Shown here piece by piece: positions 17,821-62,710 of a stretch of 64,000 nt of DNA. The notes beneath the pieces were generated by a model. That model was not told the DNA's origin and ran no database searches. It was given only the letters and a program-made list of their open reading frames with translations. The stretch comes from Patescibacteria group bacterium UBA7435. Lineage in GTDB: Bacteria; Patescibacteriota; Minisyncoccia; Phycocordibacterales; UBA918. The stretch spans positions 87,188-151,187 of the forward strand of contig DLQJ01000007.1 in the NCBI GenBank assembly GCA_002477545.1. The letters run 5' to 3'. Positions within the stretch are counted from its first letter, which is position 1. Every line of letters begins with the position of its first letter. The translations under genes and the position numbers were made by a program.

Positions 17821-19416
17821 CTATATATACTTAGTTACACTTTCAAAAAATGGCTGCAGGTTAATGCCGTTTTCATCCCCCTGAAAAACGGTGTGTATAT
17901 CTCCTGAATCAATTCCCATCTTTTTTGTAAGTTCGGTGTGTGCATTTGGATTTTTTTCTACATCAGCAATAAGTGCCCACATACCGGCAAGGAATTGTGC
18001 ATTGGAAACATCAAGGCCTTCAGCTATAGAATGGTCAGCTTTCCATGTTTCAAAAGCAGCTTCGGAAACTGTATCAATCACTTTACCTTCAGCGTTCTTT
18101 GCTCCCGAGAATACATATGAGACCTCTTGTTCACCTGGAGACATCTCAGAGGGAGCTGTATAGGTAGATGAAATACCTTCAGCTGAAACATGCGTGTTCA
18201 TTTCTGCTGCAGAAGTGAACATTGAACCGTCCAGTGTGGTAATGACGTCAGTCTGTTCTATAACCGTACCTTCTTCATTTATGGAAGATATCTGCTCTGA
18301 TTCAACTGACTGATTACCTATGTGTTTAATTCCTGAATCTGGTGTGGAAATATCATTTGTTGATGCATGTGCAGTTGGAACTTTAGGTATTGAAAAAGCT
18401 GGGTTAGACATATCTTCGTTATTAAGCATCGTTGGAAATGTCACTAAAGCAGCTAACCCTATGGCTTTGGCAGTACTCCAGAACCCCTTTCTGTCTTTTT
18501 TTATTTCACTAATTTTTTCAAAATATCCTCGTTCTGAAGCTCTTGTCTCAAGCGTAGCTTGCATCTCATTGAGTACTTCTTCAGGTTTTTCATTCTCAGA
18601 TAATTCGACCTTTTCAATAGGTTCACTTTCACTAGAAAAACCAACGAACTGATCGTCAGTCGCATCCTTAACACGCATATCGGGTGTTAACACAAGTCGT
18701 TCTGATTTTTTATTTTCCCCATCTGCTTCAGGTCCAACATTCTGAGAAAGTTCGTTAAGACGTTTAGTCTCAGACAGTTGAAATGCTTCAAACCCCTCTG
18801 CCGTATGCTTCATATCTGCATTATCATCTTCAGGAAGATCAAGATCACTTTCCACAGAAGTGACAGGTTGATCATCACTCAGGGCTAATGAGTCAGGTTC
18901 TACAATCTCTTGATTGACAGAATCTTCTTCATCTTCAGGAATAAGTGTTTCTAACTGCACTCCATTTTTTCTTGCAAAAGTTTCAACACGGTTACGCAAT
19001 TTTACCAATGCATTAAATTTAGTTTGTATATCTTGGACATCATCTTCCGTAAGAGCTGCATCACCTTGCTCTTTTGCTTTACGTGAGACTTCACCAAGCG
19101 CTTTCTTTAATTTTGCATACTGCATGCGAAGCGGGAAGTTTCCTTCCACTTCTTCTTTCGAGAGCCCCAGTCGGGGACTTTCATATCCTAAAGCAGTACG
19201 TATCTGATATCCTTCTGTAAAAAGTACAATTGCAGATTTAAACATCTCTTTTCTTCCTTCTTCAGTTTCTAAAGAGACCATTGGCATCTCAACTGCTTCT
19301 TGAGCAATTTTTGATTGCTCAGGTTTATCGCCTCCCGAACCAGAACCTTTCTCAGGTTCGTGTACCACGGAAAGATTAAACTCACCGTACCGTTTTTTGA
19401 AAGATTCTAAACCCAT
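17821..19416 (-). CDS. hypothetical acidic protein with a single central TM
   Basis: 531 aa; acidic coiled-coil-like N-terminal half; TM (GLAALVTFPTML); Ser/Thr-rich probable extracytoplasmic C-terminal half. Confidence 0.5.
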   Translation of the reverse strand: MGLESFKKRYGEFNLSVVHEPEKGSGSGGDKPEQSKIAQEAVEMPMVSLETEEGRKEMFKSAIVLFTEGYQIRTALGYESPRLGLSKEEVEGNFPLRMQYAKLKKALGEVSRKAKEQGDAALTEDDVQDIQTKFNALVKLRNRVETFARKNGVQLETLIPEDEEDSVNQEIVEPDSLALSDDQPVTSVESDLDLPEDDNADMKHTAEGFEAFQLSETKRLNELSQNVGPEADGENKKSERLVLTPDMRVKDATDDQFVGFSSESEPIEKVELSENEKPEEVLNEMQATLETRASERGYFEKISEIKKDRKGFWSTAKAIGLAALVTFPTMLNNEDMSNPAFSIPKVPTAHASTNDISTPDSGIKHIGNQSVESEQISSINEEGTVIEQTDVITTLDGSMFTSAAEMNTHVSAEGISSTYTAPSEMSPGEQEVSYVFSGAKNAEGKVIDTVSEAAFETWKADHSIAEGLDVSNAQFLAGMWALIADVEKNPNAHTELTKKMGIDSGDIHTVFQGDENGINLQPFFESVTKYI

Positions 19417-23763: not shown

Positions 23764-25263
23764 ATGGATAATATTGGAAATCGAATCGCTTCCCTGCGCG
23801 AACAGGCACGCTTTACACAATCTGTCTTAGCAGAAAAAATCGGCACCACACAAAGTGCGGTGGCACGAATGGAAACAGGAAATCAAAATATCTCAACTGA
23901 AATGGTACGAAAAATAAGCAAAGCGTTAAATAAAAATCTCTTGACCGGAACACCTGGATCAGTAAATCTTCAAATTGAAGGTGGGGAGACGCTCTCGGGA
24001 ACTATCCAAACCAATACTTCGAAAAACGGTGCGGTTGGTCTTTTGTGTGCGTCATTACTAAATACAGGAACTACTACCCTACGTCGTATGCCTCGTATTG
24101 AAGAAGTATATCGCTTGATCGAAGTGCTTGAGAGTATCGATGTAAAAATCGAATGGGAGGGTGATCTAATGAAAATTACCCCACCGAAGAAATTCGATCT
24201 TTCGAAGATCAACGTAGAAGCAGCCCGCCGCACACGAAGTATCGTAATGTTTATTGGTCCACTAATGCATCACCTTAAAAAGTTCTCACTTCCACAATCG
24301 GGAGGTTGTAAACTTGGCAGTCGAACAGTGAGACCTCACTTCTACGCACTTGAACACTTTGGTGTGAATATCGAAACAACTGAGGACGCATTTGAAGTAA
24401 CTGCATCACCCGTATGTCCAAGTGAAATTATTCTCTACGAATCAGGTGATACGGTAACTGAAAATGCACTTTTTGCTGCAGCACTCTCCCCGTGCACAAC
24501 GACGATTAAATACTGTTCGGCGAACTATATGGTACAAGAAATGTGTGCCTTCCTTATTGCATGCGGGGTAAAAATTGAAGGAGTTGGAACCACAACACTT
24601 ACCATAACAGGTATACCTGAACTGGCACTGGATATTGAATACACACTGGCAGAAGATCCAACCGACTCGATGTTCTTCATTGCAACTGCGATTGTTACCA
24701 ACTCAGAACTCACTATCACACGTTGCCCTATTGATTTCCTTGAACTTGAGCTTCTGAAGCTTGGGAAGATGGGATTCAAATACACGCAATCAGAACCGTA
24801 TCTCAGTGATAATGGACTAACGCGTTTAGTAGACCTTGTAACCAAACCCTCTAAACTCACCTCACTGCACGAAAAAGTGTACGCTCGACCTTACCCAGGT
24901 CTGAATATCGATAACCTTCCCTTCTTTGCAGTTATTGCAACCCAAGCGGATGGGCAAACGCTCATCCATGATTGGGTATATGAAAAACGAGCAATTTACT
25001 TCACTGAACTTGATAAGCTCGGAGCTGAAACCATGCTTGCTGATCCACATCGCATCTACATCACCGGACCAACAAAACTACGAGCAAACGAGCTCGTATG
25101 CCCTCCTGCACTACGTCCTGCAACCATTCTGCTTATCGGAATGCTTGGCGCAACCGGAACATCAGTACTGCGTAATATCTATAGTATCAATCGAGGATAT
25201 GAAAATCTTGTAGAGCGCTTGCAGTCACTTGGTGCGAAGGTGTCGTATCTTGAGGAATTTTAA
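23764..25263 (+). CDS. murA: XRE-family HTH domain fused to UDP-N-acetylglucosamine 1-carboxyvinyltransferase
   Basis: N-terminal ~60 aa is a Cro/C1 HTH; remainder aligns to full MurA including the catalytic Cys (GGCKLGSR) and C-terminal RGYENL. Confidence 0.85.
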   Translation: MDNIGNRIASLREQARFTQSVLAEKIGTTQSAVARMETGNQNISTEMVRKISKALNKNLLTGTPGSVNLQIEGGETLSGTIQTNTSKNGAVGLLCASLLNTGTTTLRRMPRIEEVYRLIEVLESIDVKIEWEGDLMKITPPKKFDLSKINVEAARRTRSIVMFIGPLMHHLKKFSLPQSGGCKLGSRTVRPHFYALEHFGVNIETTEDAFEVTASPVCPSEIILYESGDTVTENALFAAALSPCTTTIKYCSANYMVQEMCAFLIACGVKIEGVGTTTLTITGIPELALDIEYTLAEDPTDSMFFIATAIVTNSELTITRCPIDFLELELLKLGKMGFKYTQSEPYLSDNGLTRLVDLVTKPSKLTSLHEKVYARPYPGLNIDNLPFFAVIATQADGQTLIHDWVYEKRAIYFTELDKLGAETMLADPHRIYITGPTKLRANELVCPPALRPATILLIGMLGATGTSVLRNIYSINRGYENLVERLQSLGAKVSYLEEF

Positions 25264-51426: not shown

Positions 51427-52242
51427 ATGCAAAAGTATTTATCTCTAGAAAAAAAAGTCGGACAGACTCCCCTGCAATGTGTTGAACTATACAAATCTAC
51501 ACACCCAGAACTACAAGGTGTGTCTATGTCGTATGCGGGACGTCTAGACCCAATGGCTTCAGGAACACTTCTTATTCTATTGGGTGAGGAATGTAAGAAT
51601 CAAAAGGAGTATCATAATCTTGATAAAGAATACGAATTCGAAATTCTTTTTGGCCTTTCTTCTGACACCGCTGATGTACTTGGTCGACTTACTGAAAATA
51701 CTGAGCTTCCTACAATCACTCAGGAACAAATCAAAAAAGTGACCAAAGGACTTATTGGTGAGCTAGACCTTCCCTACCCACACTTCTCTTCCAAGACGGT
51801 ACAGGGGAAACCATTACACACATGGACACTTGAGGGTCGTATTGATGAAATAGAAATCCCTACGAAAAAATCACAGATTCACACACTAACATGCACTAAT
51901 CTATACAAAGAGACACGAAAGCAGGTGTACACATATGCAAGTACTAAAATTGAAACAATTCCTCCAGTTACTGAACTACGTAAAGCTATTGGTAACGACT
52001 TCCGCAGAGTTGACGTCCGTAAGGATTGGGAGACATTTATTGAAAATGGTTCCTTTGAAGATATCTTTTATGTTGCAACGTTTACCTGTACCGCTTCTTC
52101 AGGTACATACATGCGCACGTTAGCTGAGGTCATCGCAAAAGCGTGTGACACTACGGGACTCGCATATGCTATCCACCGAAATACCGTAGGTACATACAAG
52201 AAACTTCCCTTGCTTGGTGGAATTTGGACTAAGAAATATTAA
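51427..52242 (+). CDS. truB: tRNA pseudouridine(55) synthase TruB-like
   Basis: GRLDPMASGTLLILLGE catalytic Asp motif; TruB length. Confidence 0.7.
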   Translation: MQKYLSLEKKVGQTPLQCVELYKSTHPELQGVSMSYAGRLDPMASGTLLILLGEECKNQKEYHNLDKEYEFEILFGLSSDTADVLGRLTENTELPTITQEQIKKVTKGLIGELDLPYPHFSSKTVQGKPLHTWTLEGRIDEIEIPTKKSQIHTLTCTNLYKETRKQVYTYASTKIETIPPVTELRKAIGNDFRRVDVRKDWETFIENGSFEDIFYVATFTCTASSGTYMRTLAEVIAKACDTTGLAYAIHRNTVGTYKKLPLLGGIWTKKY

Positions 52243-52994
52243 TACGGACGATCACCATTGTTGCCCGATGGATTGTACTGACAGACCCACATTTGAGTTA
52301 AGCGATCACCATCATCGCACACTGACACTCCACATCCAACTTGTGTTGTTTCTTTCCAAACTGCCTGAGTGTAATGTCCACATTGCTCACCTGCCTGACA
52401 GGTGTTTTTGCTGTAATTGTAATACTGCTCTTCATCAAGCCACCAGAAAACAGCTTGGGTTGGGTCGAGTGTCTGAGTCTTTGCGGTAGTCCAACTGAAA
52501 TACAAGTTTTCTCCATACGGCCCATCACTGTGCTCAAGAATACAACCTCGACCAGCTAGATTATCAGCCCATGCTTGGGCACTTTTAGCCACTGAAGGTG
52601 CATAGGTCAATGGAGACAGGCCTTTGCCTGCACGAGTAGTGTTATGTCCAGCAAGGATGCTCTGAATATGTACCGAAGTGACTCCAGACATCGAAGGAGT
52701 AGGTACAGGGGATGGTGGCACAATCTCCTCCTTCTCTTGGTTTGGTGTAACGGGAACCACCATAGGGACAACCGCAGACTCAGTCTCCTGTGTCTCTAAA
52801 TCAAGCACAGAACTTGATGCCGAACTATGTATAGCATCAGTTGTTGTAGTCAGAGATGTTTGATCCTCAATCTTGTCAGAATCGGAGATAACGGCAGTTG
52901 TATCAGTTGTATTTTTACCAAAAATAAATATAAGCACCATACACAATACTGCAAGGACAATAAGTATTTCCCAAATATATTTTGATACCTTCAT
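52239..52994 (-). CDS. CAP/SCP/PR1-domain secreted protein
   Basis: TM anchor, Thr-rich linker; CAP motifs HNTTR, GHYTQAVW, CGHY. Confidence 0.8.
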   Translation of the reverse strand: MKVSKYIWEILIVLAVLCMVLIFIFGKNTTDTTAVISDSDKIEDQTSLTTTTDAIHSSASSSVLDLETQETESAVVPMVVPVTPNQEKEEIVPPSPVPTPSMSGVTSVHIQSILAGHNTTRAGKGLSPLTYAPSVAKSAQAWADNLAGRGCILEHSDGPYGENLYFSWTTAKTQTLDPTQAVFWWLDEEQYYNYSKNTCQAGEQCGHYTQAVWKETTQVGCGVSVCDDGDRLTQMWVCQYNPSGNNGDRPY

Positions 52995-53034: not shown

Positions 53035-55011
53035 CTATTTTTTTTCTGAAAGCTCAGCATGTTTCTTCAAATACTCGTCAACAGTAATAACAAACTCAGC
53101 ATGACTCCACGTCAACGGTGCAGTAGAAAGATGTTCGCCGGTGTGCGGGTGCATCTGCTCAGCAAGTACGCCACTTTCAGTTGCATGCTCGCATGTCCAT
53201 TCTAAAATCTGGTACGCTTGCTCTAAGCCTTTAAGACTCTCTGCGGCCATAATGCAGTACTGTGCCATCCATAAGGTTGTAATCACCCAAGGGTTTGGAG
53301 TCCCCGTGTCTTGCAGAGTGTAGTAGGTATCATTTTCATACCGTACATATCCGATGCTTTTGGCATCTACTCGTAATCGGTCTTCAACGGTCTGTAGTGC
53401 TTTACGTACACGCGGATCATGTGGCTCTACTACTCCGAAGTACACGGGGCCAAAGAAACTACTCATATCAACCGTCGTGTCTCGAACATCGTCTTTATCA
53501 TCATATGCACGAATCTGCTTAATGAACATCCCCTGCTCTTCATCATATAAATGTTCCATGATCGCACCTTGGATTCGCTGTGCCACAGCACTATAGGTAC
53601 GTGCAGCTTCTTCTTTACCAAGCATATTTGCAAACTGTGCTGCGCTACTTAACGCAGCGTACACGGACGATGCTGTATAGGTTGAAATACCAAACTTTTC
53701 TTCCCAGAGATCAAATGAATTATTTGGAAGACCCAGACGTGACTCTACAAATTCGGTCATGAAGTCTGCTGCTTTTTCGATAAACGGATTATAGAGTGAT
53801 TCAATATATTCCAAGTCTTTAGCGATCTCATAGTGCTTCCAAAGCATATGAAGCACCAACGCAGTTTCGTCTTCTTGAATTGGAAACTCTGGTTCACCTT
53901 CAATAATCCACGGATGCCAAGAACTTCCTAGACATCCATCAGAACGATACTTGTGCATGAAATATCCACCGCGCTCCAACTTGTCCGTCATAAACGTAAA
54001 GAAGCGTCGAGCGACATCAGAGTGTCCTGTGCGATCAAGTGAGTTAGCAATCAAAGCAGCATCGCGTGGCCACACATAACTATATGTGTCTCGGCCATGA
54101 TGCAACATATCGGTGTCACTTGAGGCAATGATTCCCCCTCGGTTATCAGTATGTACACGAATAGTGGTGAGCGAACGTTTATAGAGTGTTTGCAACGGTA
54201 CAGATAAGAGCGAGAGATCACGCTCGTCAGCATCCACCCACGCCTTCCAATAGTTTTCCGTTGATCGCAACAAACGTTTTGGTGTTTCTTCTAACACATA
54301 CGCATTAAGGTCGTGTGCTTCTGCCATATCTTCAGCGCACACAATCCAATAATCAATATCAGCAGATTTTTTTGCGTTTAGTTTAACTTCAACGCCGATA
54401 ACTGAATCAACCGACCCATGTTCAATAGGATTCTTTTCAAGAATGCCATCATTGGCGTCAAAATAGGTACCTTCTCTTCCTTCAATACCAAACAGTCCAA
54501 TATTGTATTCAGTGAATTGCTTTCCCTCATGCATGGCGTTCATAAGAAACGTATGCTTTCCTTTATAGTGAATTACCGCATTTACTCGAGGATCATAAAA
54601 ACCAGTGTCTCCCCTGCGCGATTCTGAAATACGAAACTGCTGTGAGAAAAATACTTTCACCGCGCGCGTATCTTTAGTCATATTTGTGACCGTAAATGAG
54701 CGGATAAAAACGTTCTTTTCATTATGTACAATATCAACACTTGAAAGCGTAATACCTAGTTCGTTGTTTACCGCACTCATAGTACCCACCACTGTCTCAG
54801 CGTCACACCCTACGGTGATCTGCCACTGTGGGTCATCTAACCATGAAATAGTATCATCAACGTAAATACCGATACGGTGTACAAAACTTCCACTTGCTCC
54901 ACTGATATGGTTGCTAAACCCGACAAACGGATAGTACAGATCACGAACCTGCCCACGGTAATCTAACCCGACAAGTATGTTTCCGTTTCCTAATGTGACT
55001 GCTCGTGACAT
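53035..55011 (-). CDS. glycoside hydrolase family 15 (glucoamylase / glucodextranase / trehalase-like)
   Basis: 658 aa; (alpha/alpha)6 core with YSYVWPRDAA, DLWEE and LTWSHAE. Confidence 0.8.
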   Translation of the reverse strand: MSRAVTLGNGNILVGLDYRGQVRDLYYPFVGFSNHISGASGSFVHRIGIYVDDTISWLDDPQWQITVGCDAETVVGTMSAVNNELGITLSSVDIVHNEKNVFIRSFTVTNMTKDTRAVKVFFSQQFRISESRRGDTGFYDPRVNAVIHYKGKHTFLMNAMHEGKQFTEYNIGLFGIEGREGTYFDANDGILEKNPIEHGSVDSVIGVEVKLNAKKSADIDYWIVCAEDMAEAHDLNAYVLEETPKRLLRSTENYWKAWVDADERDLSLLSVPLQTLYKRSLTTIRVHTDNRGGIIASSDTDMLHHGRDTYSYVWPRDAALIANSLDRTGHSDVARRFFTFMTDKLERGGYFMHKYRSDGCLGSSWHPWIIEGEPEFPIQEDETALVLHMLWKHYEIAKDLEYIESLYNPFIEKAADFMTEFVESRLGLPNNSFDLWEEKFGISTYTASSVYAALSSAAQFANMLGKEEAARTYSAVAQRIQGAIMEHLYDEEQGMFIKQIRAYDDKDDVRDTTVDMSSFFGPVYFGVVEPHDPRVRKALQTVEDRLRVDAKSIGYVRYENDTYYTLQDTGTPNPWVITTLWMAQYCIMAAESLKGLEQAYQILEWTCEHATESGVLAEQMHPHTGEHLSTAPLTWSHAEFVITVDEYLKKHAELSEKK

Positions 55012-55014
55012 ATA

Positions 55015-55479
55015 TTAAAAACTGTAATTACGTAAGGTGCGTACTATGACTGTTCGCGCTGAAGATGGCTTGCGACTTCGACGTAGCTCATCGGCACAAG
55101 TTTCATCTTTAAGAATATGCTCTACCCAATCTGCGAAGTCATTTTTTTCTTTAGTTACATGGTGCAGAAACACTTCCTCCTGCATAGATCCAAACGCCAT
55201 CTGTAGATGATTAAGATCTTCCAAAACTTTTCCGTCAGTTGTCCAGAAGCAATGTTCAGGGTCGGCACACACTAGAGCTCGCACTTGTTTCTTATTTCCG
55301 GATACCTTCTTTGCAGGTGCCTTCTTTGCTGCTTTTTTGACAGCTTTTTTAGGAGTTGATTTCTTCACAGTTTTCTTAGCTACTTTTTTTACAGCTGTTT
55401 TTTTCACTGCTTTTGAAGCAGTTTTTTTAGGAGCGATTTTCTCTCCCACTTTTTTTGAAACTTTTTTAAATATAGACAT
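55015..55479 (-). CDS. histone H1-like Lys/Ala-repeat protein with Cys/His-containing C-terminal domain
   Basis: N-terminal (A/T/V)KK(A/T/V) repeats over ~65 aa; C-terminal VCADPEHCFW...H..H domain; lies between the GH15 and GH57 genes. Confidence 0.55.
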   Translation of the reverse strand: MSIFKKVSKKVGEKIAPKKTASKAVKKTAVKKVAKKTVKKSTPKKAVKKAAKKAPAKKVSGNKKQVRALVCADPEHCFWTTDGKVLEDLNHLQMAFGSMQEEVFLHHVTKEKNDFADWVEHILKDETCADELRRSRKPSSARTVIVRTLRNYSF

Positions 55480-55484
55480 AAGAA

Positions 55485-56816
55485 CTAATTAGAAAACTTG
55501 ATAAAGAGTAACGCGCGCGTCACGAGGTGTTTCAGATACTGCACGATACGTTCGTACCATGGCATCATCACCTCCTGAGAATCCTCTGCATTAATCATCT
55601 CTTCTTGTTGCTTTTGAGCAACTGCATGTTGTACTCGTAATTGTAAGTCACTTAAGGCATTCATGAAAGCGACATACGCATCATATGGGGATTCGTATGG
55701 AGAGAAATACGCATGCACATCTCCATCATCTGACCACTTTGTACACATATAGTAGAAATGATCGGAAGTTTGTAACTTACGCCAGACTTCAACAAGTTCG
55801 GTATCTCCCGTAGACATCACATCTTTCTCCATTCCATAGATTGCCGCTATGGCATCTTTTTGAATGTCGTTACCTGTCCATGCAGTTAAATCGCGGTCAG
55901 TATCTGCCCACGTAAGAATATCTGGTACATCAATCTCCCCTACTGAATCATAGCTTTCAATGGTTTCTGATGGAGTTTTAAATGAAGTGTCTGGGTGACG
56001 TAATAAAATTTCGGGTAATGCACTAATGAAATTAAAAATTCCTGTGTCCTCCCACTGGTGTTCACCAAAGGTCTCATAATCCATAAAGAGGTTAATTGTA
56101 TTCCCATCCCCATGATGTGCATGAATCCAGTCAGCGTACGTCTCAGCGGTTAGAGGATGACTTGCCCATCCTTTATTACCAAAACGAAAGGCTACGTCAT
56201 CAGAGAGCTTATAGTTCTTAAGCAGTACCTTGATACGATTACATCCAACCGGTGAGTACACATGATTAGGACTACGCCATCCTAAGACCGGGTCCCAACC
56301 CTCAGCCATGATCCCTAGGTACCCATTGTCTTCACACCATTTAGCCAGATCGTTACGATACGACAGCTCTGTATTGCGGAACACACGCGGTGACACTCCA
56401 AACAACTCATGTACACGCTTTGCGTGTTGCGCTACTTGTCGTTCAAATTCAGGTACTGAGTAGAAGAATGCAAGTGAGTGATGATAGGTATCTGCAAGAA
56501 TTTCAACACGTCCGGTTGCTACTAGCTTTTGAAAACTTTCCAAAACATCAGGTGCATACGCCTCAAACTGGTCGAGTACAGTTCCAGAAAATGAAAGTGC
56601 GAAACAAAACTCGGGATGCTTCTCGAGAAGTTCCATAAGCTTTGCGTTCATTGGACGGTATGACTTATGTGCCACTTTCTCTATAATCTTCCGATTATTC
56701 AAATCAGCTTCAGAAGAATCATTAAAATACTCGTTATCGTTACCTATATCAAAAACCCGGAATTTCTTAATCCGATACGGTTGATGTACATGAAAATAAG
56801 GACAGACAGTTAACAT
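55485..56816 (-). CDS. glycoside hydrolase family 57 alpha-glucan enzyme
   Basis: N-terminal HQP motif; FMDYETFGEH catalytic region. Confidence 0.75.
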   Translation of the reverse strand: MLTVCPYFHVHQPYRIKKFRVFDIGNDNEYFNDSSEADLNNRKIIEKVAHKSYRPMNAKLMELLEKHPEFCFALSFSGTVLDQFEAYAPDVLESFQKLVATGRVEILADTYHHSLAFFYSVPEFERQVAQHAKRVHELFGVSPRVFRNTELSYRNDLAKWCEDNGYLGIMAEGWDPVLGWRSPNHVYSPVGCNRIKVLLKNYKLSDDVAFRFGNKGWASHPLTAETYADWIHAHHGDGNTINLFMDYETFGEHQWEDTGIFNFISALPEILLRHPDTSFKTPSETIESYDSVGEIDVPDILTWADTDRDLTAWTGNDIQKDAIAAIYGMEKDVMSTGDTELVEVWRKLQTSDHFYYMCTKWSDDGDVHAYFSPYESPYDAYVAFMNALSDLQLRVQHAVAQKQQEEMINAEDSQEVMMPWYERIVQYLKHLVTRALLFIKFSN

Positions 56817-56817
56817 A

Positions 56818-58029
56818 TTATTTTACCCATTCTAACAGATGCTGATATAAGTCACGGACTTTGCTTGCTACGCCTTTCCAAGAAAGTCGTTTCACTTCAC
56901 GTTGACCTTCCCGAACCAATTGTTGATGCATTACCGGATACCGCATTGTGGCAAGAATTTTATTAGCCATATCCTCAACATCCCAAAAATCAACTTTTAG
57001 TACATGGGTTACCACCTCAGCAACACCGGACTGTTTGGAAATAAGCGACGGTGCACCGTGTTGAATTGCTTCCAGTGGCACCAAACCAAACGGTTCAGAT
57101 ACTGATGGCATCACCACCAAATCGACACTCTGATACATTTGATCACGTTCTTCGTACCAAAGTGCCCCTGCAAACAAAATATGTTGTGAAAGACCCAGTG
57201 CCCCCACCTGTCGCATGATCTGTGCAGTCATGTCCCCTTTGCCTGAAATGACAAAGATAATATTTGGATCATGCTCAATTACTTTCTGTGCAGCTTGGAC
57301 AAAATAATCCACCCCTTTTTGAATCGTGATTCGTCCGTGATACAGAACAATCTTTTTGCCTTGTGCTCGCAGTTCTTGTAGCGTTGGTTCATGTCGCTTT
57401 GGCTCTTGGACATGTACCCCGTTATGCATAACCTGCACTTTCTCTGGATCAGTACCGTACTTATCAACGATAATATTTTTAGTAAATTGACTTACTGCAA
57501 TAACTCGATCGGCCGCATTAAATGCTTCCTGCTCTATACCAAACACCGTTGGGTCAACACTGTTTCCGGCAGCCTGATCAAATGATGTCGCGTGTACGTG
57601 GAGAATCAATGGTCTTCCTGTAGCAACTTTTGCTGCAACTCCAGCAAGATACGAAGTCCAATCGTGTGCATGAATAAGATCAAATGTTTCATTTTTTGCA
57701 ATCTCTGATGCTTTATGAGCAAACGCATGCACTTCAGCAATAAGAGTACTCTGGTACATGCGCCGCACCCCATACTCATCATATACATCCATGCGCGTTT
57801 CTGAGCCTAAATACGGTGCAATAGAAGAGTTAACCTCGTGCACACGGACCATGTGTTCAATGTCAGCAAAAATGAAACGGCCTGACCCTTCTACTGCTTG
57901 TGTTTTTGGCAATACAAAAATAACCTCAACGCCTTGTTCGGCGAGTTCACGTGTCAGACCTTGGCATGCTACGCCGAGTCCTCCTGTTGTGTGTGGCGGG
58001 AAATCCCAACCAAAAGTAAGAACTTTCAT
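56818..58029 (-). CDS. GT-B glycosyltransferase (GT4/GT5), glycogen/alpha-glucan synthase-like
   Basis: 403 aa with N- and C-terminal Rossmann halves; 1 nt from GH57. Confidence 0.65.
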   Translation of the reverse strand: MKVLTFGWDFPPHTTGGLGVACQGLTRELAEQGVEVIFVLPKTQAVEGSGRFIFADIEHMVRVHEVNSSIAPYLGSETRMDVYDEYGVRRMYQSTLIAEVHAFAHKASEIAKNETFDLIHAHDWTSYLAGVAAKVATGRPLILHVHATSFDQAAGNSVDPTVFGIEQEAFNAADRVIAVSQFTKNIIVDKYGTDPEKVQVMHNGVHVQEPKRHEPTLQELRAQGKKIVLYHGRITIQKGVDYFVQAAQKVIEHDPNIIFVISGKGDMTAQIMRQVGALGLSQHILFAGALWYEERDQMYQSVDLVVMPSVSEPFGLVPLEAIQHGAPSLISKQSGVAEVVTHVLKVDFWDVEDMANKILATMRYPVMHQQLVREGQREVKRLSWKGVASKVRDLYQHLLEWVK

Positions 58030-58367: not shown

Positions 58368-58398
58368 AAAGGCCCGCAAGGGCCTATTATTTATTTTG
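58368..58398 (+). terminator. terminator after rpmG
   Basis: aggccc-gcaa-gggcct plus T-rich tail. Confidence 0.55.
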
Positions 58399-58610: not shown

Positions 58611-58964
58611 ATGCATATAGTAAAAAAAGTATCCCCCAGTGGCGTTTGGTGTGAATTTCGCTTTCCCTTCAGAATCGGAAAAATTGAGGAGAACCGATAC
58701 TGGCAACGTTTTTCCACAACATCGCTTACCGGTGGACTGACGAAAAATGAAGATCAACTGATGGCCATCGAAAAACTTAAGATTTTTGGGGAATTGCTCA
58801 AAATATCAAGATTGCCTGTTGACAGAGTCGATATTTGTAATCAGTTCGATAATGCTCTCGAAGTAAAAATTGAAGATGGTCCCAATGCAACTGCCGTAAT
58901 CATATTCAGTGCCGTGGATAAACTTTTAGAACAAGCTTTCCAGCTGGAGGTTACGGTTAAGTAA
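58611..58964 (+). CDS. hypothetical protein (117 aa)
   Basis: ORF with SD aaggatg. Confidence 0.45.
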   Translation: MHIVKKVSPSGVWCEFRFPFRIGKIEENRYWQRFSTTSLTGGLTKNEDQLMAIEKLKIFGELLKISRLPVDRVDICNQFDNALEVKIEDGPNATAVIIFSAVDKLLEQAFQLEVTVK

Positions 58965-59024: not shown

Positions 59025-60053
59025 TTATGCTTCCATCGATGGGTCGTATGTTCCCTGATCCGCCATACTATTCAATCGTAATCGTTTAAGCAAGGCTTCT
59101 TGTGCTGCAGGGATATTTTCATCTTTCCCCATCCAGGCTTGCTGTACCGGCTGTTCGATTCCTCGTGAGAATGAAAATGCGAGCTCCCATGGTAATCCTC
59201 CCATCTGTTCCTCTTGCTCAGCTAATGCGTCAAGATTCTCTGTAGCTCGCTGTGGTGTCTGTCCTCCTGAAAGAAAGACAATTCCCGGTACTGTATCTGG
59301 CACAGTCTTCTGAAAGGTTCGGATAGAGGCTTCAGCGACACCTTTAGGGCTGGTTTGATCTGGATGTTCACTTCCGGCAAGTACCATACTTGATTTAAGG
59401 ATCACTCCTCGTAAATCAACCTTGTACCAAGACATAATTTCAAAAAGTTTCTTCAGTACCTGTGTAGTCACTTCTTCAGCCCGTTCCAATGAATGAGGTC
59501 CGCTAAAGATAATCTCAGGCTCTACAATTGGCACAATACCAACTTCGTGACACAGTGCTGAATATCGCGCTAATGTCATACAGTCGAACAGTGTATTTTG
59601 CTCTGTTGGTGTCGTGTCTGAGATATTAAATACTGTACGGAATTTTGCACCGCGTGCACCCATATCATAATATTCCTGTAAACGATCCTGCAGTCCATCA
59701 AGTCCTTGAGTAACCACCTCCCCTTCAAATCCGTGATGTGGGACTGTTCCCGTATCTACCTTGATGATTGGAATAATTCCTTTAGCAACAAGTAGGTCAG
59801 AAAATTGAACCTGGTCATCAGTGTGGTTACGAATGGTTCCATCATGCAAAATAACACCAGTAACAAATTCTTCGATACCTGGAGTGGTAAACATTAATTG
59901 TCGATACTTCCGTCGGAGCTCAGCTTCAGGTGGTAGCCCTAGGGCTTCAAGTTGTTTATTCATCGTTCGTGGACTCTGGTCCGCTGCTAAAATACCTTTG
60001 TGTGGCGACACGAGCTGCAATGCGATCTCATGGAGTTTTTCTATGTTTGACAT
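59025..60053 (-). CDS. fba: fructose-bisphosphate aldolase, class I
   Basis: GILAADQSPRTMNKQL signature; Schiff-base Lys region; 342 aa. Confidence 0.8.
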   Translation of the reverse strand: MSNIEKLHEIALQLVSPHKGILAADQSPRTMNKQLEALGLPPEAELRRKYRQLMFTTPGIEEFVTGVILHDGTIRNHTDDQVQFSDLLVAKGIIPIIKVDTGTVPHHGFEGEVVTQGLDGLQDRLQEYYDMGARGAKFRTVFNISDTTPTEQNTLFDCMTLARYSALCHEVGIVPIVEPEIIFSGPHSLERAEEVTTQVLKKLFEIMSWYKVDLRGVILKSSMVLAGSEHPDQTSPKGVAEASIRTFQKTVPDTVPGIVFLSGGQTPQRATENLDALAEQEEQMGGLPWELAFSFSRGIEQPVQQAWMGKDENIPAAQEALLKRLRLNSMADQGTYDPSMEA

Positions 60054-60321
60054 GCTTATAGTGTATCAGTAGAACCCTCTCTCGTTAGGACTCCCTGTGG
60101 GTACAAAATCTAACGGGCCAAGTTTCTAATTCATTATATTCATAAGAACTTCCTTTCTTACAGAAACTGTTTAGGTTGTCGCTCTGAAGATCTGGCAACC
60201 TCTTGCGAAAGTATTTTGATACTTTCTCACCCGGCCTCGACTGTTTTTATATTGTGAATAATAAAAACATGTCTCCGACTGTCAAAAGAGTCCAAAAGCA
60301 AAACTGTTTGCTTTCTAGAAT

Positions 60322-60351
60322 AAAACCTGAATTCGTATGAATTCAGGTTTT
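60322..60351. terminator. bidirectional terminator
   Basis: aaaacctgaattc-gtat-gaattcaggtttt. Confidence 0.75.
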
Positions 60352-60360
60352 ATTCTACTC

Positions 60361-61122
60361 TTACGACCTAATCTTCCATCCAATCTTAAATAGATGATTG
60401 ACCAGCGATGCCAGCCCAACAACCAATCCAATGATCAAGAATGCACCAAACGTAGTATCCGCTTCACTTACACCGATCATACTGCTACGAATACCATCTG
60501 CAAAGTAGAAAAATGGATTCCAAAGTGTAATTGTCTGAGCGACCTCTGGAAGCATTGTAATTGAGTAGAAAATACCACCTAAGTATGTCAGCGGTGTAAT
60601 TACAAACGTATTGAGTACTGTCAGCTGTTCAAAACTCTCAGCCCATAATGCGACGATCAATCCCAGCATAGAAAAGATCGCAGCAATTGCAGACACGTAG
60701 AGAATAAAGGCAATTGGGTTAACGAGTGTAACCGCGCCAAAGAAAAGTCCCGTGATAAGAATCAAGAATGCCACCATTAGTGAACGAGCGATTGATCCCG
60801 CAACAAATCCAAAGATCATCTCAAGATATGAAAATGGCGCGATCAAAATCTCCTCAAGTCCTCGTGTAAAGCGCATAAAGTACAGCGAAGATGATGCACT
60901 AGAGAATGATGCATTAATAATTGAGAGCATCAAAACCCCCGGAAATACAAAGGAGATGTATGGCACTCCCGCAATACTATCAATTTTTGATCCAATAACT
61001 GTTCCAAAAATAAAAATGTACAGCGCTGCTGAGATTACCGGTGCAATCAATGTTTGTACAACCACACGGAATGTCCTTTGTACCTCACGTCGAATCATCG
61101 TGTATAAGCCTATTCCATTCAT
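60361..61122 (-). CDS. ABC-2 type transporter permease
   Basis: 253 aa, 6 TM; 2 nt after the ATPase gene. Confidence 0.7.
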   Translation of the reverse strand: MNGIGLYTMIRREVQRTFRVVVQTLIAPVISAALYIFIFGTVIGSKIDSIAGVPYISFVFPGVLMLSIINASFSSASSSLYFMRFTRGLEEILIAPFSYLEMIFGFVAGSIARSLMVAFLILITGLFFGAVTLVNPIAFILYVSAIAAIFSMLGLIVALWAESFEQLTVLNTFVITPLTYLGGIFYSITMLPEVAQTITLWNPFFYFADGIRSSMIGVSEADTTFGAFLIIGLVVGLASLVNHLFKIGWKIRS

Positions 61123-61124
61123 AA

Positions 61125-61877
61125 TTACGATTTTTTATTATCTTCGCGAGTAATTGCAAGGTATGCATCTTCAACTGATTTACCGTCTTTCATAAAGCTT
61201 TCCTTAGTCCCCTGTGCCACAATCCGTCCATGATTGATAATCGCAATGTCCTTACATAGATACTGAATCTCTTCCAAATAGTGTGAGGTAAGAATAATGG
61301 TCTTCCCTCGTTCGTTCATTTCCTTCAGGTATTCCCAGAGATCATGCCGTTGCTCAACATCAACTCCAGCAGTAGGCTCATCAAGAATCAGTAGGTCGGG
61401 TGTATGAATAAGTGCGCGCCCGAGCATTGCTCGCCGTTTCAACCCTCCTGAGAGTTTTTGAAACTTCATATGACGATGATCCTGAAGGTCAAATCGTTCA
61501 ATCATTTCATCAATACGTTCCTGTCGTTCCTTTGCAGGCACACCATAGTATCCGCCCATATAATCCATGAGTTGTTCTGGTGTTGCGAAAATATCCACAT
61601 TGAATTCCTGTGGTGAAAGTCCAACTTTTGTTCGTGCTTCCTTGTAGTCCTTGACTACATCCGTTCCATCAATAGTGATCGTTCCTGAAGTAGGTTGTGC
61701 AATTCCTGTAATACAATGAATTGTCGTGCTCTTCCCTGCCCCATTGGGACCAAGGAGTCCAAAGAAACTCCCCTTTGGAATAGACAATGAAACATTATCT
61801 ACCGCCGTCTTCTCATCCTTCCCCTTCCCATATTTCTTCACGAGATTAGTAATCTCAAGCATTGGTATATCTGACAT
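61125..61877 (-). CDS. ABC transporter ATP-binding protein
   Basis: Walker A GPNGAGKST, LSGG signature, Walker B ILDEPT; start at MSDIPMLEITNL. Confidence 0.85.
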   Translation of the reverse strand: MSDIPMLEITNLVKKYGKGKDEKTAVDNVSLSIPKGSFFGLLGPNGAGKSTTIHCITGIAQPTSGTITIDGTDVVKDYKEARTKVGLSPQEFNVDIFATPEQLMDYMGGYYGVPAKERQERIDEMIERFDLQDHRHMKFQKLSGGLKRRAMLGRALIHTPDLLILDEPTAGVDVEQRHDLWEYLKEMNERGKTIILTSHYLEEIQYLCKDIAIINHGRIVAQGTKESFMKDGKSVEDAYLAITREDNKKS

Positions 61878-61984
61878 GGTAGTAGTATAGCAAAAAAGTA
61901 TCTGGGCGCATCTATGGAGAATTTCTACAGTGATTAGTTTGTTTGATTGACTTTCATTCACTTAAAACGCATAGTTCCTAGACT

Positions 61985-62710
61985 ATGGATCAAGAAGAAC
62001 AGTGGCTACTTACTGAAAAGTACAAAGGCATGGAAAGCGAAGCTTTCCATGCCGACCTGACGCGTCTGCGCGATGGTGAACCGCTTGGGTATGTTATTGG
62101 CTCTGTTCCATTTATAAACTGTGATATCGCTCTTGATTCACACCCGCTGATCCCACGAGTAGAGACTGAATATTGGACTGAAAAAGCCATTACTGAAATA
62201 CAAAAAACAAAAAACTCTACAATGCTCGATCTTTGTGCTGGTTCTGGAGCTATCGGGACGGCGGTTGCTAAAGCAATTCCCGATGTACACGTCACCTTTG
62301 GTGAAATTGATCCTGTACACCTCCCTACTATAATCAGAAATGCTGAGCTCAACGAAATCACACCTGAACGTCTCACTGTAACTGAAAGTAATCTCTTTAA
62401 AAACATTTCGGGGACTTTTGATTTTATCCTGACCAACCCGCCATACATAGACCCCGCGGTTGATCGTGCGGAAGACTCGGTAAAAATGCACGAACCGCAC
62501 CTTGCGCTGTATGGAGGAACTGGTGGGATGGAATGTATTACTCGTATTATCGAGGAAGCTCCGCAGTATCTAAATAAAGACGGACAGCTTTGGATTGAAC
62601 ACGAACCGGAGCAATCAGAAGCCATTACCGCCCTTGCAAACAAAGCTGGATTCCACTGCATTACACACAAAGATCAATACCGTATAGAGCGTTATTCGGT
62701 GCTACAATAA
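61985..62710 (+). CDS. prmC: HemK/PrmC-family SAM-dependent methyltransferase
   Basis: DLCAGSGAIG SAM motif; NPPY motif. Confidence 0.6.
   Translation: MDQEEQWLLTEKYKGMESEAFHADLTRLRDGEPLGYVIGSVPFINCDIALDSHPLIPRVETEYWTEKAITEIQKTKNSTMLDLCAGSGAIGTAVAKAIPDVHVTFGEIDPVHLPTIIRNAELNEITPERLTVTESNLFKNISGTFDFILTNPPYIDPAVDRAEDSVKMHEPHLALYGGTGGMECITRIIEEAPQYLNKDGQLWIEHEPEQSEAITALANKAGFHCITHKDQYRIERYSVLQ

What the first reader, a model, noticed from the sequence alone, without database searches (positions are those of the whole stretch)
53035..58029. Alpha-glucan gene cluster (GT, GH57, GH15) with an embedded histone-H1-like Lys/Ala-repeat protein
Four minus-strand genes sit 1-6 nt apart: a GT-B glycogen-synthase-like transferase, a GH57 enzyme (HQP, FMDYETFGEH), a 154-aa protein and a GH15 glucoamylase/trehalase-like enzyme (YSYVWPRDAA, DLWEE). 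The 154-aa protein has an N-terminal half of (A/T/V)KK(A/T/V) repeats like histone H1, Hc1 or AlgP tails, and a conserved-looking Cys/His C-terminal domain. A polycationic repeat protein inside a glycogen operon is unexpected. It could be a nucleoid-associated protein co-transcribed by accident, or a polyanion (glucan-phosphate or nucleic acid) binding factor.
Basis: partly seen in the sequence, partly recalled or inferred. Interest (0 to 1): 0.5.

Follow-up and report, generated by a model that had tools for sequence, protein, structure and literature searches.

The report
Lysine-tailed OrfY-like protein in glycogen operon
A small protein with a histone-H1-like lysine tail and a domain related to the uncharacterised archaeal protein OrfY is a fixed fourth gene of the glycogen-type gene cluster of ultra-small (CPR) bacteria and some DPANN archaea, so it is probably an unrecognised accessory factor of storage-glucan metabolism, not an accidental passenger.

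Summary
Four minus-strand genes lie 1, 5 and 3 nt apart: a GlgA/GlgM-like GT-B transferase, a GH57 enzyme, a 154-aa protein and a GH15 enzyme.

The 154-aa protein has two parts. Residues 1-66 form a disordered tail with 26 Lys and net charge +25. Residues 67-154 form a mildly acidic domain of a beta-hairpin and five helices.

The gene is not accidental. GT-GH57-small-GH15 recurs in about 21 Patescibacteria loci, down to 42% identity. It is also present in 7 of 7 loci chosen through GH57 alone. GT-GH57-small occurs in three DPANN archaeal loci.

Function is untested. My best inference (about 0.4) is a non-catalytic adaptor, analogous to PhaM and PhaF. In this reading the module docks on the glucosyltransferase or the glucan, and the tail binds DNA or another polyanion. 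It is a new variant of a known but uncharacterised family.

The parts
56818..58029 (-). GT-B glucosyltransferase, GlgA/GlgM-like (403 aa). It is the first gene of the cluster.
   Evidence: Pfam hits: Glycos_transf_1 3e-30, Glyco_transf_4 1.4e-27, Glyco_transf_5 2e-17. NCBIfam: TIGR02149 glgA_Coryne at 134 bits, below its cutoff. Best PDB relatives: maltose-1-phosphate synthase GlgM 6tvp at 1.6e-19 and Pyrococcus GlgA at 4e-17. A TTGGLG motif is visible near the N-terminus. No signal peptide is visible.
55485..56816 (-). GH57 enzyme (443 aa), of the type annotated 'alpha-amylase'. It starts 1 nt after the GT stop codon.
   Evidence: Pfam Glyco_hydro_57 at 1.7e-66. The motifs HQP, NTEL and MDYETFGEH are visible in the sequence. 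The only PDB sequence relative is a 4-alpha-glucanotransferase at 1e-5; no solved branching enzyme is hit. More than 8000 homologues reach E<=1e-20; JGI names them alpha-amylase.
55282..55479 (-). Small protein, residues 1-66: polycationic, disordered tail of K/A/T/V composition.
   Evidence: 26 K, 0 R, 1 E, net charge +25, pI 11.1. AF2 pLDDT is below 50 for residues 15-54. Tail sequence and length vary between homologues while the composition is kept.
55018..55281 (-). Small protein, residues 67-154: a single OrfY/DUF5752-type module with a beta-hairpin, five helices and the HHV...KNDFADWV motif.
55015..55479 (-). Whole small gene (154 aa plus stop). It lies 5 nt after the GH57 stop and 3 nt before the GH15 start.
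   Evidence: The identical protein occurs on 24 public contigs. There are 222 or more homologues. 4,295 clusters at 50% identity carry the module.
53035..55011 (-). GH15 enzyme (658 aa), of the glucoamylase / oligosaccharide-amylase type. It is the last gene of the cluster.
   Evidence: Pfam Glyco_hydro_15 at 2.3e-36. NCBIfam TIGR01577 at 354 bits, below its cutoff; the trehalase models score weaker. PDB relatives: dextran dextrinase, glucoamylase 1lf6, glucodextranase. The motifs YSYVWPRDAA and DLWEE are present.
58370..58385 (.). Terminator-like GC-rich hairpin that reads on both strands. It probably marks the upstream boundary of the transcription unit, between the aldolase gene and the GT gene.
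   Evidence: This is a consensus scan only, not evidence of function.
59025..60053 (-). Class I fructose-bisphosphate aldolase, a conserved upstream neighbour of the cluster.
   Evidence: Pfam Glycolytic at 1.8e-106. It lies upstream of GT in 19 of the first 20 Patescibacteria loci (L014 has too little upstream DNA) and in 6 of the 7 GH57-anchored loci.

Best explanation
**Shown.** The 154-aa gene is a real, conserved fourth component of a cytoplasmic alpha-glucan (glycogen-type) cluster, GT-GH57-X-GH15. The protein has two parts:
- A C-terminal folded module that is a single copy of the repeat making up OrfY/DUF5752. That family is of unknown function, and its full-length members are translationally coupled to the GT4 trehalose synthase TreT.
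- An N-terminal disordered polylysine tail whose composition, but not sequence, is conserved.

**Inferred.** The protein is a non-catalytic adaptor or organiser of the glucan machinery. The OrfY-type module docks on the NDP-glucose glucosyltransferase, or on the enzyme-glucan particle. The polycationic tail binds a polyanionic scaffold, most likely chromosomal DNA (the nucleoid).

This would tether, space or activate glycogen synthesis. PhaM and PhaF do this for PHB granules, and AlgP does it for polyphosphate granules, all through histone-like tails. In very small CPR cells such tethering would also ensure that the carbon store is inherited at division.
For: **Synteny.**
- The order FBA-GT-GH57-small-GH15 holds in L001-L020, apart from L014 and L017, which are cut upstream. 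The small protein falls to 42% identity across these loci. The cluster is also present in L021, L023, L026 and L030.
- GT-GH57-small occurs in the Woesearchaeota loci L033, L037 and L039.
- In 7 of 7 loci selected through GH57 only, a gene with tail and module lies between GH57 and GH15.

**Tight gene spacing.**
- The window genes are 1 to 5 nt apart.
- orfY and treT overlap by 4 nt.
- Such spacing is typical of stoichiometric partners.

**Homology to OrfY.**

**OrfY-TreT linkage.** It is demonstrated in L057-L064. Two branches of the module family therefore sit beside NDP-glucose alpha-glucosyltransferase genes.

**The tail.**
- Net charge is +25 and the tail is predicted disordered.
- A basic tail is present in 78 of 106 small family representatives, with almost no acidic residues.
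- Short basic tails are also present in the archaeal cluster-linked members L037 and L039.

**No catalytic or transport signature.** No enzyme, HTH, CBM or phasin family is detected in Pfam. No signal peptide is visible on any of the four proteins.

**Precedent.** PhaM, PhaF and AlgP bind DNA through histone-like domains and bind the granule through their other part. PhaM also activates the synthase PhaC (review PMC13052382).
Against: - There is no experimental datum for any member of the family. The depositors of 4CSO call OrfY a 'transcription factor'.
- No interaction with GT, GH57 or GH15 has been shown or modelled here.
- The module also occurs in DPANN proteins with no sugar enzymes nearby: coiled-coil proteins, HerA-type membrane ATPases, a TrxB fusion and a kinase-S1 fusion. 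Its binding partner may therefore be generic and not a glucosyltransferase.
- Some cluster-linked members lack the tail (L023, L026, L030, L033), so tethering cannot be the core conserved function.
- The tail is N-terminal, whereas in PhaM and PhaF it is C-terminal. The PhaM comparison is analogy only.
- It is not known whether these organisms form glycogen granules.
Confidence: 0.4

Rival explanations
1. It is a transcriptional regulator of the operon. The basic tail, perhaps with the basic last helix (LRRSRKPSSARTVIVRTLRNY), binds DNA. The OrfY module senses a sugar or sugar-nucleotide and so adjusts expression of the glucan genes.
For: The PDB depositors name OrfY 'transcription factor'. 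The tail is H1/AlgP-like, and AlgP was first described as a regulator (reference list of PMC13052382). Small regulators are often encoded inside the operons they control.
Against: - The folded domain is acidic, pI 5.9.
- The gene sits mid-operon with 3-5 nt gaps, which implies enzyme-like expression levels.
- A homopolymer-like Lys tail gives non-specific, not operator-specific, binding.
- The module occurs at the ends of coiled-coil proteins and membrane ATPases.
Confidence: 0.2
2. The OrfY-type module is itself a new carbohydrate- or ligand-binding module for alpha-glucan, trehalose, glucose or NDP-glucose. The protein coats or marks the glucan. The tail has a secondary role, such as binding phosphorylated glucan, RNA or polyphosphate, or acting as an entropic spacer.
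For: The family-wide conserved residues are aromatic or polar: F78, H107, N113, D114, F115, W118. This is the kind of set seen in sugar-binding sites. Both gene contexts, GlgA-like/GH57/GH15 and TreT, concern alpha-glucosides.
Against: - There is no similarity to any CBM family.
- The conserved aromatic residues may simply be helical-bundle core.
- Many DPANN contexts show no sugar genes.
- The N113, F115 and W118 counts were forced by the motif I used to collect the modules.
Confidence: 0.15
3. It is a membrane-targeting adaptor. The polybasic tail binds anionic phospholipids and recruits the glucan enzymes to the cytoplasmic membrane.
For: Polybasic stretches commonly bind acidic lipids (general knowledge). 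One archaeal cluster-linked homologue, L033, has a C-terminal transmembrane helix in place of a basic tail. The second paralogue in L037 also has a transmembrane helix. Both suggest a link between localisation and the membrane.
Against: The tail has no hydrophobic or aromatic anchor residues. The established analogues with the same composition (H1, Hc1, AlgP, PhaM, PhaF) bind DNA or polyphosphate.
Confidence: 0.1
4. It is a general nucleoid-associated (histone-H1-like) protein that merely sits in the operon and has no role in glucan metabolism.
For: The tail composition resembles H1, Hc1 and AlgP. Four of 28 relatives give weak Pfam HC2 hits, driven by composition.
Against: - The gene keeps the same position between GH57 and GH15 across deep divergence and in two domains of life.
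- The conserved part is the OrfY module, not the tail.
- The OrfY family is independently linked to TreT.
Confidence: 0.05

Closest known systems
OrfY of Thermoproteus tenax (PDB 4CSO) / Pfam DUF5752 (PF19027)
   Same: - Same signature, hHh...(K/T)NDF(A/S)xW followed by an acidic helix and L-A: profile E 0.0069 and hhalign 93%.
- The gene lies beside an NDP-glucose-dependent GT-B alpha-glucosyltransferase gene with tight spacing.
- Function is unknown in both.
   Different: - OrfY/DUF5752 is about 200 aa with two tandem modules and no basic tail. The window protein has one module and a 66-aa polylysine tail.
- The window protein scores below the Pfam threshold (16.5 against 23 bits).
- The partner genes differ: TreT and the trehalose locus for OrfY, against GlgA-like, GH57 and GH15 here.
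- That orfY was described as an ORF upstream of treT (Kouril et al. 2008, Arch Microbiol 190:355) is from my memory. The paper could not be retrieved.
PhaM (Cupriavidus necator) and PhaF (Pseudomonas putida), nucleoid tethers of PHB/PHA granules
   Same: Both combine a Lys/Ala-rich histone-like DNA-binding region with a part that binds the storage-polymer machinery. They are encoded with, or act on, the polymer synthase, and PhaM activates PhaC (PMC13052382). This is the functional analogy I propose.
   Different: There is no sequence or fold relationship; no phasin or PhaM family is detected. Their histone-like region is C-terminal, whereas here it is N-terminal. The polymer is a polyester, not a glucan. 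No comparable factor is known for glycogen.
Histone-H1-like bacterial proteins: AlgP (Pseudomonas) and Hc1/Hc2 (Chlamydia)
   Same: The low-complexity K/A/(P/T/V) repeat composition and extreme positive charge are shared. AlgP associates with a storage granule, polyphosphate.
   Different: The resemblance is in composition only. The window protein gives no HC2 hit, and 4 of 28 relatives give weak HC2 hits. The conserved, defining part of this protein is the OrfY module, which those proteins lack.
Archaeal glycogen gene clusters with glycogen synthase, GH57 'amylase' and GH15 glucoamylase (e.g. Sulfolobus acidocaldarius)
   Same: The enzyme set is the same: glycogen synthase-type GT, GH57 and GH15. 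In S. acidocaldarius, mutant phenotypes place the synthase and GH57 on the synthesis side and GH15 on the degradation side (review PMC11046441).
   Different: The Sulfolobus synthase is GT5, and a GH133 debranching enzyme is also involved. Whether an OrfY-like gene lies in those clusters was not tested here. The review treats non-glycogen genes in clusters only as 'unrelated' white arrows.

Membership tests
DUF5752 / OrfY (PF19027) | Score above the Pfam gathering threshold (23 bits) | tested here: not met
   The window protein scores 16.5 bits, E 0.0055, matching residues 109-133 to profile positions 54-78. 26 of 28 close relatives hit weakly, best E 8e-5. Archaeal homologues pass the threshold: L037 28.9, L051 32.9, L036 29.6, L024 24.6, L046 26.2 bits.
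DUF5752 / OrfY (PF19027) | Fold of the solved member (4CSO) | tested here: met
   [not shown]
DUF5752 / OrfY (PF19027) | Profile-level sequence homology, including the NDF(A/S)xW motif | tested here: met
   hhalign of A2 against OrfY-like alignment A3: 93% probability, E 3e-7. hmmsearch of the A2 profile against PDB: 4cso E 0.0069, with a second NDFSRW repeat seen in OrfY.
DUF5752 / OrfY (PF19027) | Two tandem modules in a protein of about 200 aa | tested here: not met
   The window protein has a single module at residues 67-154. All matches are to the first half of the 208-position profile. Bona fide OrfY-like proteins cover positions 9-207.
DUF5752 / OrfY (PF19027) | Gene neighbourhood with a GT-B NDP-glucose glucosyltransferase | tested here: met
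   OrfY-like genes overlap treT by 4 nt in L061, L062 and L064. The window gene lies in one tight cluster with a GlgA/GlgM-like GT, separated from it by GH57.
Histone H1-like / Hc1-Hc2 / AlgP | Homology beyond composition (H1 globular domain, Hc1 N-domain, HC2 repeats, AlgP KPAA repeats) | tested here: not met
   The window protein gives no such Pfam hit. Four of 28 relatives give low-complexity HC2 hits. TRF finds only a weak 12-13 nt repeat at 55384-55429.
Histone H1-like / Hc1-Hc2 / AlgP | Polycationic Lys/Ala-rich disordered region | tested here: met
   26 Lys in 66 residues, net charge +25, pI 11.1. pLDDT is below 50.
Histone H1-like / Hc1-Hc2 / AlgP | DNA (or polyphosphate) binding | not testable with these tools
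   Needs EMSA or anisotropy measurements with purified protein.
PhaM/PhaF-type storage-granule tethers | Granule- or synthase-binding domain homologous to phasins or PhaM | tested here: not met
   No phasin or PhaM family appears in the Pfam scans. The resemblance is functional analogy only.
PhaM/PhaF-type storage-granule tethers | Physical binding to the polymer synthase or granule, and to the nucleoid | not testable with these tools
   Needs pull-downs and localisation experiments. The tools available here accept only single chains, so no complex could be modelled.
   C71, C77 and C128 are present in only 12, 21 and 16 of 73 modules. They are absent from archaeal members and from OrfY. Only H107 is conserved.
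Carbohydrate-binding modules (CBM20/21/48 etc.) | Sequence or fold match to a CBM family | tested here: not met
   No CBM appears in the Pfam scans. The fold is helical, not a beta-sandwich.
Helix-turn-helix transcription factors | HTH, wHTH or RHH DNA-binding domain | tested here: inconclusive
   [not shown]
Glycogen (alpha-glucan) metabolism cluster | A glycogen-synthase-type GT together with alpha-glucan-active hydrolases or transferases, all cytoplasmic | tested here: met
   Catalytic motifs are visible in the sequence. The exact activities (GlgA versus GlgM; GH57 amylase versus branching enzyme; GH15 glucoamylase versus trehalase) are not resolved: all NCBIfam equivalog scores are below their cutoffs.

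The most novel reading that the evidence does not exclude
The OrfY-type module is a previously unrecognised, widespread docking module for GT-B alpha-glucosyltransferases such as GlgA-like enzymes and TreT. Its lysine-tailed single-module form would be the first known organiser of glycogen: a PhaM-like factor that activates the synthase and tethers glycogen particles to the nucleoid. That would give ultra-small CPR bacteria and DPANN archaea a way to position and inherit their only carbon store.
Probability: 0.25. Interest if true: 0.75.

Novelty: new variant of a known kind. Interest (0 to 1): 0.55.

Why it matters
Prokaryotic glycogen metabolism is described purely in terms of enzymes. No structural or organising protein comparable to the phasins, PhaM or PhaF of PHB granules, or to AlgP of polyphosphate granules, is known for it.

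Here a non-enzymatic gene is a constant member of the minimal glucan operon of a large part of the Patescibacteria and of some DPANN archaea. These organisms have tiny genomes and keep few dispensable genes.

The finding also gives a first functional handle on the OrfY/DUF5752 module. Thousands of sequence clusters carry it and a crystal structure exists, but no function is known. Two separate branches of the family sit beside NDP-glucose glucosyltransferase genes.

The hypothesis can be tested directly with four recombinant proteins and an E. coli glycogen-null host.

Tried and rejected
- **Foldseek against PDB:** no match with E <= 0.001. The AFDB libraries were not available.
- **Single-sequence phmmer against PDB:** only chance-level TIR and sigma-factor hits. 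I rejected these because they are short, have E > 0.2 and lack structural support.
- **Zinc or Cys/His domain:** rejected, because the Cys residues are clade-specific.
- **Histone or HC2 membership:** rejected as compositional.
- **Defence-system reading of the 'GT4-conflict' Pfam hit on the GT:** not pursued. It is one of many overlapping GT4-family hits, and the neighbours are GH57, GH15 and aldolase.
- **Retrieving OrfY through a 39-41-aa fragment:** failed twice and cost one capped protein search. A degenerate DNA pattern in metagenomes solved it.
- **Literature on OrfY, DUF5752 and 4CSO:** nothing is held in the library. Statements about Kouril et al. 2008 are therefore from memory.
- **Tail as a proteome-wide feature of this organism:** rejected for this window. 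No other ORF of at least 80 aa has 10 or more Lys per 30 residues.
- **Second module copy in the window:** none found by six-frame hmmsearch.
- **NDP-glucose pyrophosphorylase (GlgC/GalU):** none among the 20 large window ORFs scanned or the called neighbour genes listed with Pfam hits. The rest of the genome was not examined.


Full report
**1. The observation**

- 56818-58029 (403 aa)
- 55485-56816 (443 aa)
- 55015-55479 (154 aa)
- 53035-55011 (658 aa)

The gaps between stop and next start are 1, 5 and 3 nt.

Pfam and NCBIfam confirm the enzyme assignments.
- The first protein is a GT-B transferase. It hits Glycos_transf_1, Glyco_transf_4 and the starch-synthase N-domain Glyco_transf_5. Its nearest solved relatives are the maltose-1-phosphate synthase GlgM and Pyrococcus glycogen synthase.
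- The second is GH57 (E 1.7e-66). The motifs HQP, NTEL and MDYETFGEH are visible. It has no close solved relative.
- The fourth is GH15 (E 2.3e-36) and contains YSYVWPRDAA and DLWEE. It is closest to the 'oligosaccharide amylase' and glucoamylase models, and less close to the trehalase models.
- All NCBIfam equivalog scores are below their cutoffs, so the exact activities remain open.
- None of the four proteins shows an N-terminal signal peptide. This is a cytoplasmic alpha-glucan system.
- A terminator-like hairpin at 58370-58385 separates the cluster from the upstream class I aldolase gene.

**2. Anatomy of the small protein**

- Residues 1-66 contain 26 Lys, no Arg and one Glu. Net charge is +25 and pI is 11.1. 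KK pairs recur every 4-5 residues.
- Residues 67-154 are mildly acidic (pI 5.9).
- It is the only ORF of at least 80 aa in the 64-kb window with such a Lys-rich stretch. The tail is therefore not a general habit of this proteome, as far as the window shows.
- AlphaFold2 with 85 homologues gives a disordered tail, with pLDDT below 50 for residues 15-54. The C-terminal domain is confident, with pLDDT about 90 or higher for residues ~95-150. It consists of a beta-hairpin (68-71, 77-80) followed by five helices.

**3. Is it a real, conserved gene, and is it part of the cluster?**

The gene is real and widely conserved.
- The identical protein occurs on 24 public contigs.
- At least 222 homologues were found.
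- A profile of the domain alone finds 4,295 clusters at 50% identity with E <= 1e-3, and 1,913 with E <= 1e-10, among 1.84 billion representatives.
- Alignments show a strongly conserved C-terminal domain. The consensus is ...CFWTxDGxVLxxLxxLxxAFGSMxDEVFxHHVxKEKNDFADWVExVLxDxxCAxxLR.... The tail in front of it varies freely in length and sequence but keeps its K/A/T/V composition.

The gene is part of the cluster.
- Among 56 genome loci recovered through the small protein, the order aldolase-GT-GH57-small-GH15 holds across L001-L020. L014 and L017 are cut upstream. The small protein falls to 42% identity over these loci.
- The cluster also appears in more distant bacterial loci (L021, L023, L026, L030).
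- GT-GH57-small occurs in three Woesearchaeota loci (L033, L037, L039).
- That sample was chosen through the small gene, so I made an independent one. Seven GH57 homologues on long contigs were looked up without reference to the small gene. They included MAGs labelled Nomurabacteria and Kaiserbacteria.
- All seven have a 120-158-aa gene between GH57 and GH15. Each encodes a basic tail and the module.
- The 'accidental co-transcription' option is therefore rejected.

**4. What the domain is**

- The window protein gives only a sub-threshold Pfam hit to DUF5752 (16.5 bits against a cutoff of 23).
- 26 of 28 relatives give the same weak hit.
- Archaeal homologues, including the cluster-linked L037 protein, score above threshold. 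They always match the first half of the 208-position model.
- A family profile finds 4CSO by sequence (E 0.0069). The alignment shows that OrfY carries the NDF(A/S)RW motif twice.

I then retrieved OrfY-like genes from hot-spring-type metagenome contigs with a degenerate DNA pattern.
- They are 191-201 aa (some ORFs were truncated to 167 aa by my start-codon choice) and match DUF5752 over its full length, up to 206 bits.
- They align to the window family with 93% hhalign probability, E 3e-7.
- The window domain is therefore one copy of the repeat that is duplicated in OrfY/DUF5752.

The 'Cys/His' impression does not survive.
- C71, C77 and C128 occur in 12, 21 and 16 of 73 modules.
- The positions conserved across the family are G83, L92, H107, N113, D114, F115 and W118.
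- The N, F and W counts were partly forced by the motif I used to collect the modules.

**5. Context of the closest known relative**

- In the metagenome loci, the OrfY-like gene overlaps the start of the next gene by 4 nt.
- That gene is TreT, the GT4 trehalose glycosyltransferring synthase (Pfam TreT_GT1 at 3e-57; NCBIfam TreT at 449 bits).
[quoted passage not shown] This is the trehalose locus described for T. tenax in PMC3634074.
- Two branches of this module family thus sit in tight gene arrangements with NDP-glucose-using GT-B alpha-glucosyltransferases. One branch is with TreT, the other with a GlgA/GlgM-like enzyme.
- From memory, Kouril et al. 2008 (Arch Microbiol 190:355) named orfY as an ORF of unknown function upstream of treT. 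I could not retrieve that paper or anything on 4CSO.

**6. Other contexts of the module**

In DPANN archaea the module also appears in several other settings:
- near the N-terminus of long coiled-coil proteins
- once or twice at the C-terminus of membrane proteins of about 1,300 aa that carry a HerA/DUF87 ATPase domain
- fused to a thioredoxin-reductase-like enzyme

One bacterial MAG (Abditibacteriaceae, L054) has it fused to a Ser/Thr kinase with S1 domains.

It is therefore a mobile binding module, not a catalytic domain. Its partner may not always be a glucosyltransferase.

Among the 150 best family representatives, 106 are small proteins. Of those, 78 carry a basic tail of at least 15 residues with at least 25% K+R and almost no acidic residues. 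The archaeal cluster-linked proteins L037 and L039 also have short Lys-rich N-termini. A few cluster-linked members (L023, L026, L030, L033) lack the tail. Tail plus module is thus the dominant but not universal form.

**7. How it most likely works**

What is shown:
- constant membership of the cluster
- operon-like spacing
- a two-part architecture
- homology of the module to OrfY
- no enzyme, HTH, CBM or phasin signature

What is inferred: the protein is a non-catalytic adaptor.
- The module would bind the glucosyltransferase or the enzyme-glucan particle.
- The polycationic, disordered tail would bind a polyanion, most plausibly DNA.

The best precedent is functional, not evolutionary. PhaM and PhaF bind PHB granules with one part and DNA with a histone-like Lys/Ala-rich part. 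They control granule number, spacing and inheritance, and PhaM also activates the synthase. AlgP does something similar for polyphosphate granules (PMC13052382).

I put about 0.4 on this adaptor/tether model. I put about 0.8 on the weaker statement that the protein works with the glucan enzymes.

Rivals:
- operon regulator, 0.2. The depositors' label for OrfY favours it. The lack of an HTH, the acidic domain, the mid-operon position and the module's other architectures argue against it.
- the module as a new sugar- or glucan-binding domain, 0.15
- membrane targeting through the basic tail, 0.1
- a hitch-hiking nucleoid protein, 0.05

**8. Comparison with what is known, and novelty**

- The enzyme trio is already noted in surveys of Patescibacteria and Woesearchaeota, but only as enzymes.
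- The archaeal glycogen literature likewise treats clusters as sets of enzymes (PMC11046441).
- I found no description of the small protein. Its database entries are 'hypothetical protein'.
- The domain belongs to a catalogued but uncharacterised family. The window protein is a single-module, Lys-tailed form that falls below the Pfam threshold.
- I therefore rate it a new variant of a known kind, not categorically new.
- Interest is moderate, about 0.55. A conserved non-enzymatic fourth member of a minimal glycogen operon in genome-reduced organisms is unexpected, and it gives a testable lead on the function of the OrfY module. Everything about mechanism is still inference.

**9. Limits**

- No protein-protein modelling was possible with the tools.
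- MAG taxon labels in the locus titles are unreliable (for example 'Acidimicrobiales' and 'Patiriisocius' for obviously patescibacterial contigs).
- The GH57-anchored sample covers only GH57 proteins at least 73% identical to the window's. Constancy of the small gene is therefore demonstrated for this clade, and only sampled outside it.

Noticed in passing
L022 5421-7034 and 7012-9252; L024 9866-11386 and 11383-12411; L029 8183-9718 and 9767-10888; also L025, L027, L028, L032, L041, L043, L044, L050, L052: DPANN archaea encode long coiled-coil proteins (340-1070 aa) with one OrfY-like module near the N-terminus. They share a C-terminal motif (...YY.I.EL.TDI.LA.L). Often two paralogues lie side by side. 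Function is unknown, and no sugar enzymes were detected nearby by tblastn with the window's enzymes.
   Followed up: partly
L046 6305-10216; also L031, L038 (minus strand), L045, L049, L051 (minus strand), L053: DPANN membrane proteins of about 775-1,350 aa (most about 1,250-1,350). In the one scanned with Pfam (L046) they combine a CarboxypepD_reg-like extracellular region, a HerA/DUF87 ATPase domain and a coiled coil. One or two OrfY-like modules sit at the extreme C-terminus, which is the position of the DNA-binding gamma domain in FtsK.
   Followed up: partly
L047 9444-10625; L054 7538-10258: The module is fused to a thioredoxin-reductase-like flavoenzyme in a Nanoarchaeota MAG. In an Abditibacteriaceae MAG it is fused to a Ser/Thr protein kinase with S1 RNA-binding domains.
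   Followed up: partly
L062 371-6106; same arrangement in L061 and L057; in L064 only the orfY-treT pair was seen: Thermoproteales-like metagenome contigs carry orfY-treT (4-nt overlap). Divergent from this pair are a 198-aa unknown protein, a GT4 gene and a fused TPS/TPP gene. The TreT and TPSP trehalose routes therefore lie in one locus.
   Followed up: partly
window 52239-52994 (-): A CAP/cysteine-rich secretory family protein with an N-terminal transmembrane or signal segment lies between GH15 and truB. In most related loci GH15 is followed directly by truB. The CAP gene was seen only here (and on the contigs that carry the identical small protein) and in L007, so it looks like a lineage-specific insertion.
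   Followed up: partly
window 59025-62000 and related loci L066, L070-L075: A wider conserved synteny surrounds the cluster: MTS-type methyltransferase, ABC ATPase, ABC-2 permease, class I aldolase, (ribosomal protein L33), GT, GH57, small gene, GH15, TruB, CNNM/CBS transporter.
   Followed up: partly
window 19421-22195 (-): A 924-aa protein with HerA/DUF87 and TrwB/T4SS coupling-protein-like ATPase signatures. It is flanked by two 531-aa ORFs with no Pfam hit (15874-17469 and 17821-19416). It carries no OrfY-like module.
   Followed up: no
window 23764-25263 (+): An EPSP-synthase-fold (MurA/AroA-type) enzyme with an N-terminal HTH_3 (XRE-type) domain fused to it. This is an unusual architecture.
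   Followed up: no
window 58611-58964 (+): A 117-aa ORF with no Pfam hit lies in the spacer between the aldolase gene and the GT gene. It is called as a gene on the public contig (L066). Related genomes have a ribosomal protein L33 gene in this spacer instead.
   Followed up: no
L001, L002, L009, L026 record titles: Several public MAG records carrying this patescibacterial cluster are labelled Patiriisocius, Acidimicrobiales, Azotimanducaceae or Pseudomonadales. This probably reflects mis-binning or mislabelling.
   Followed up: no
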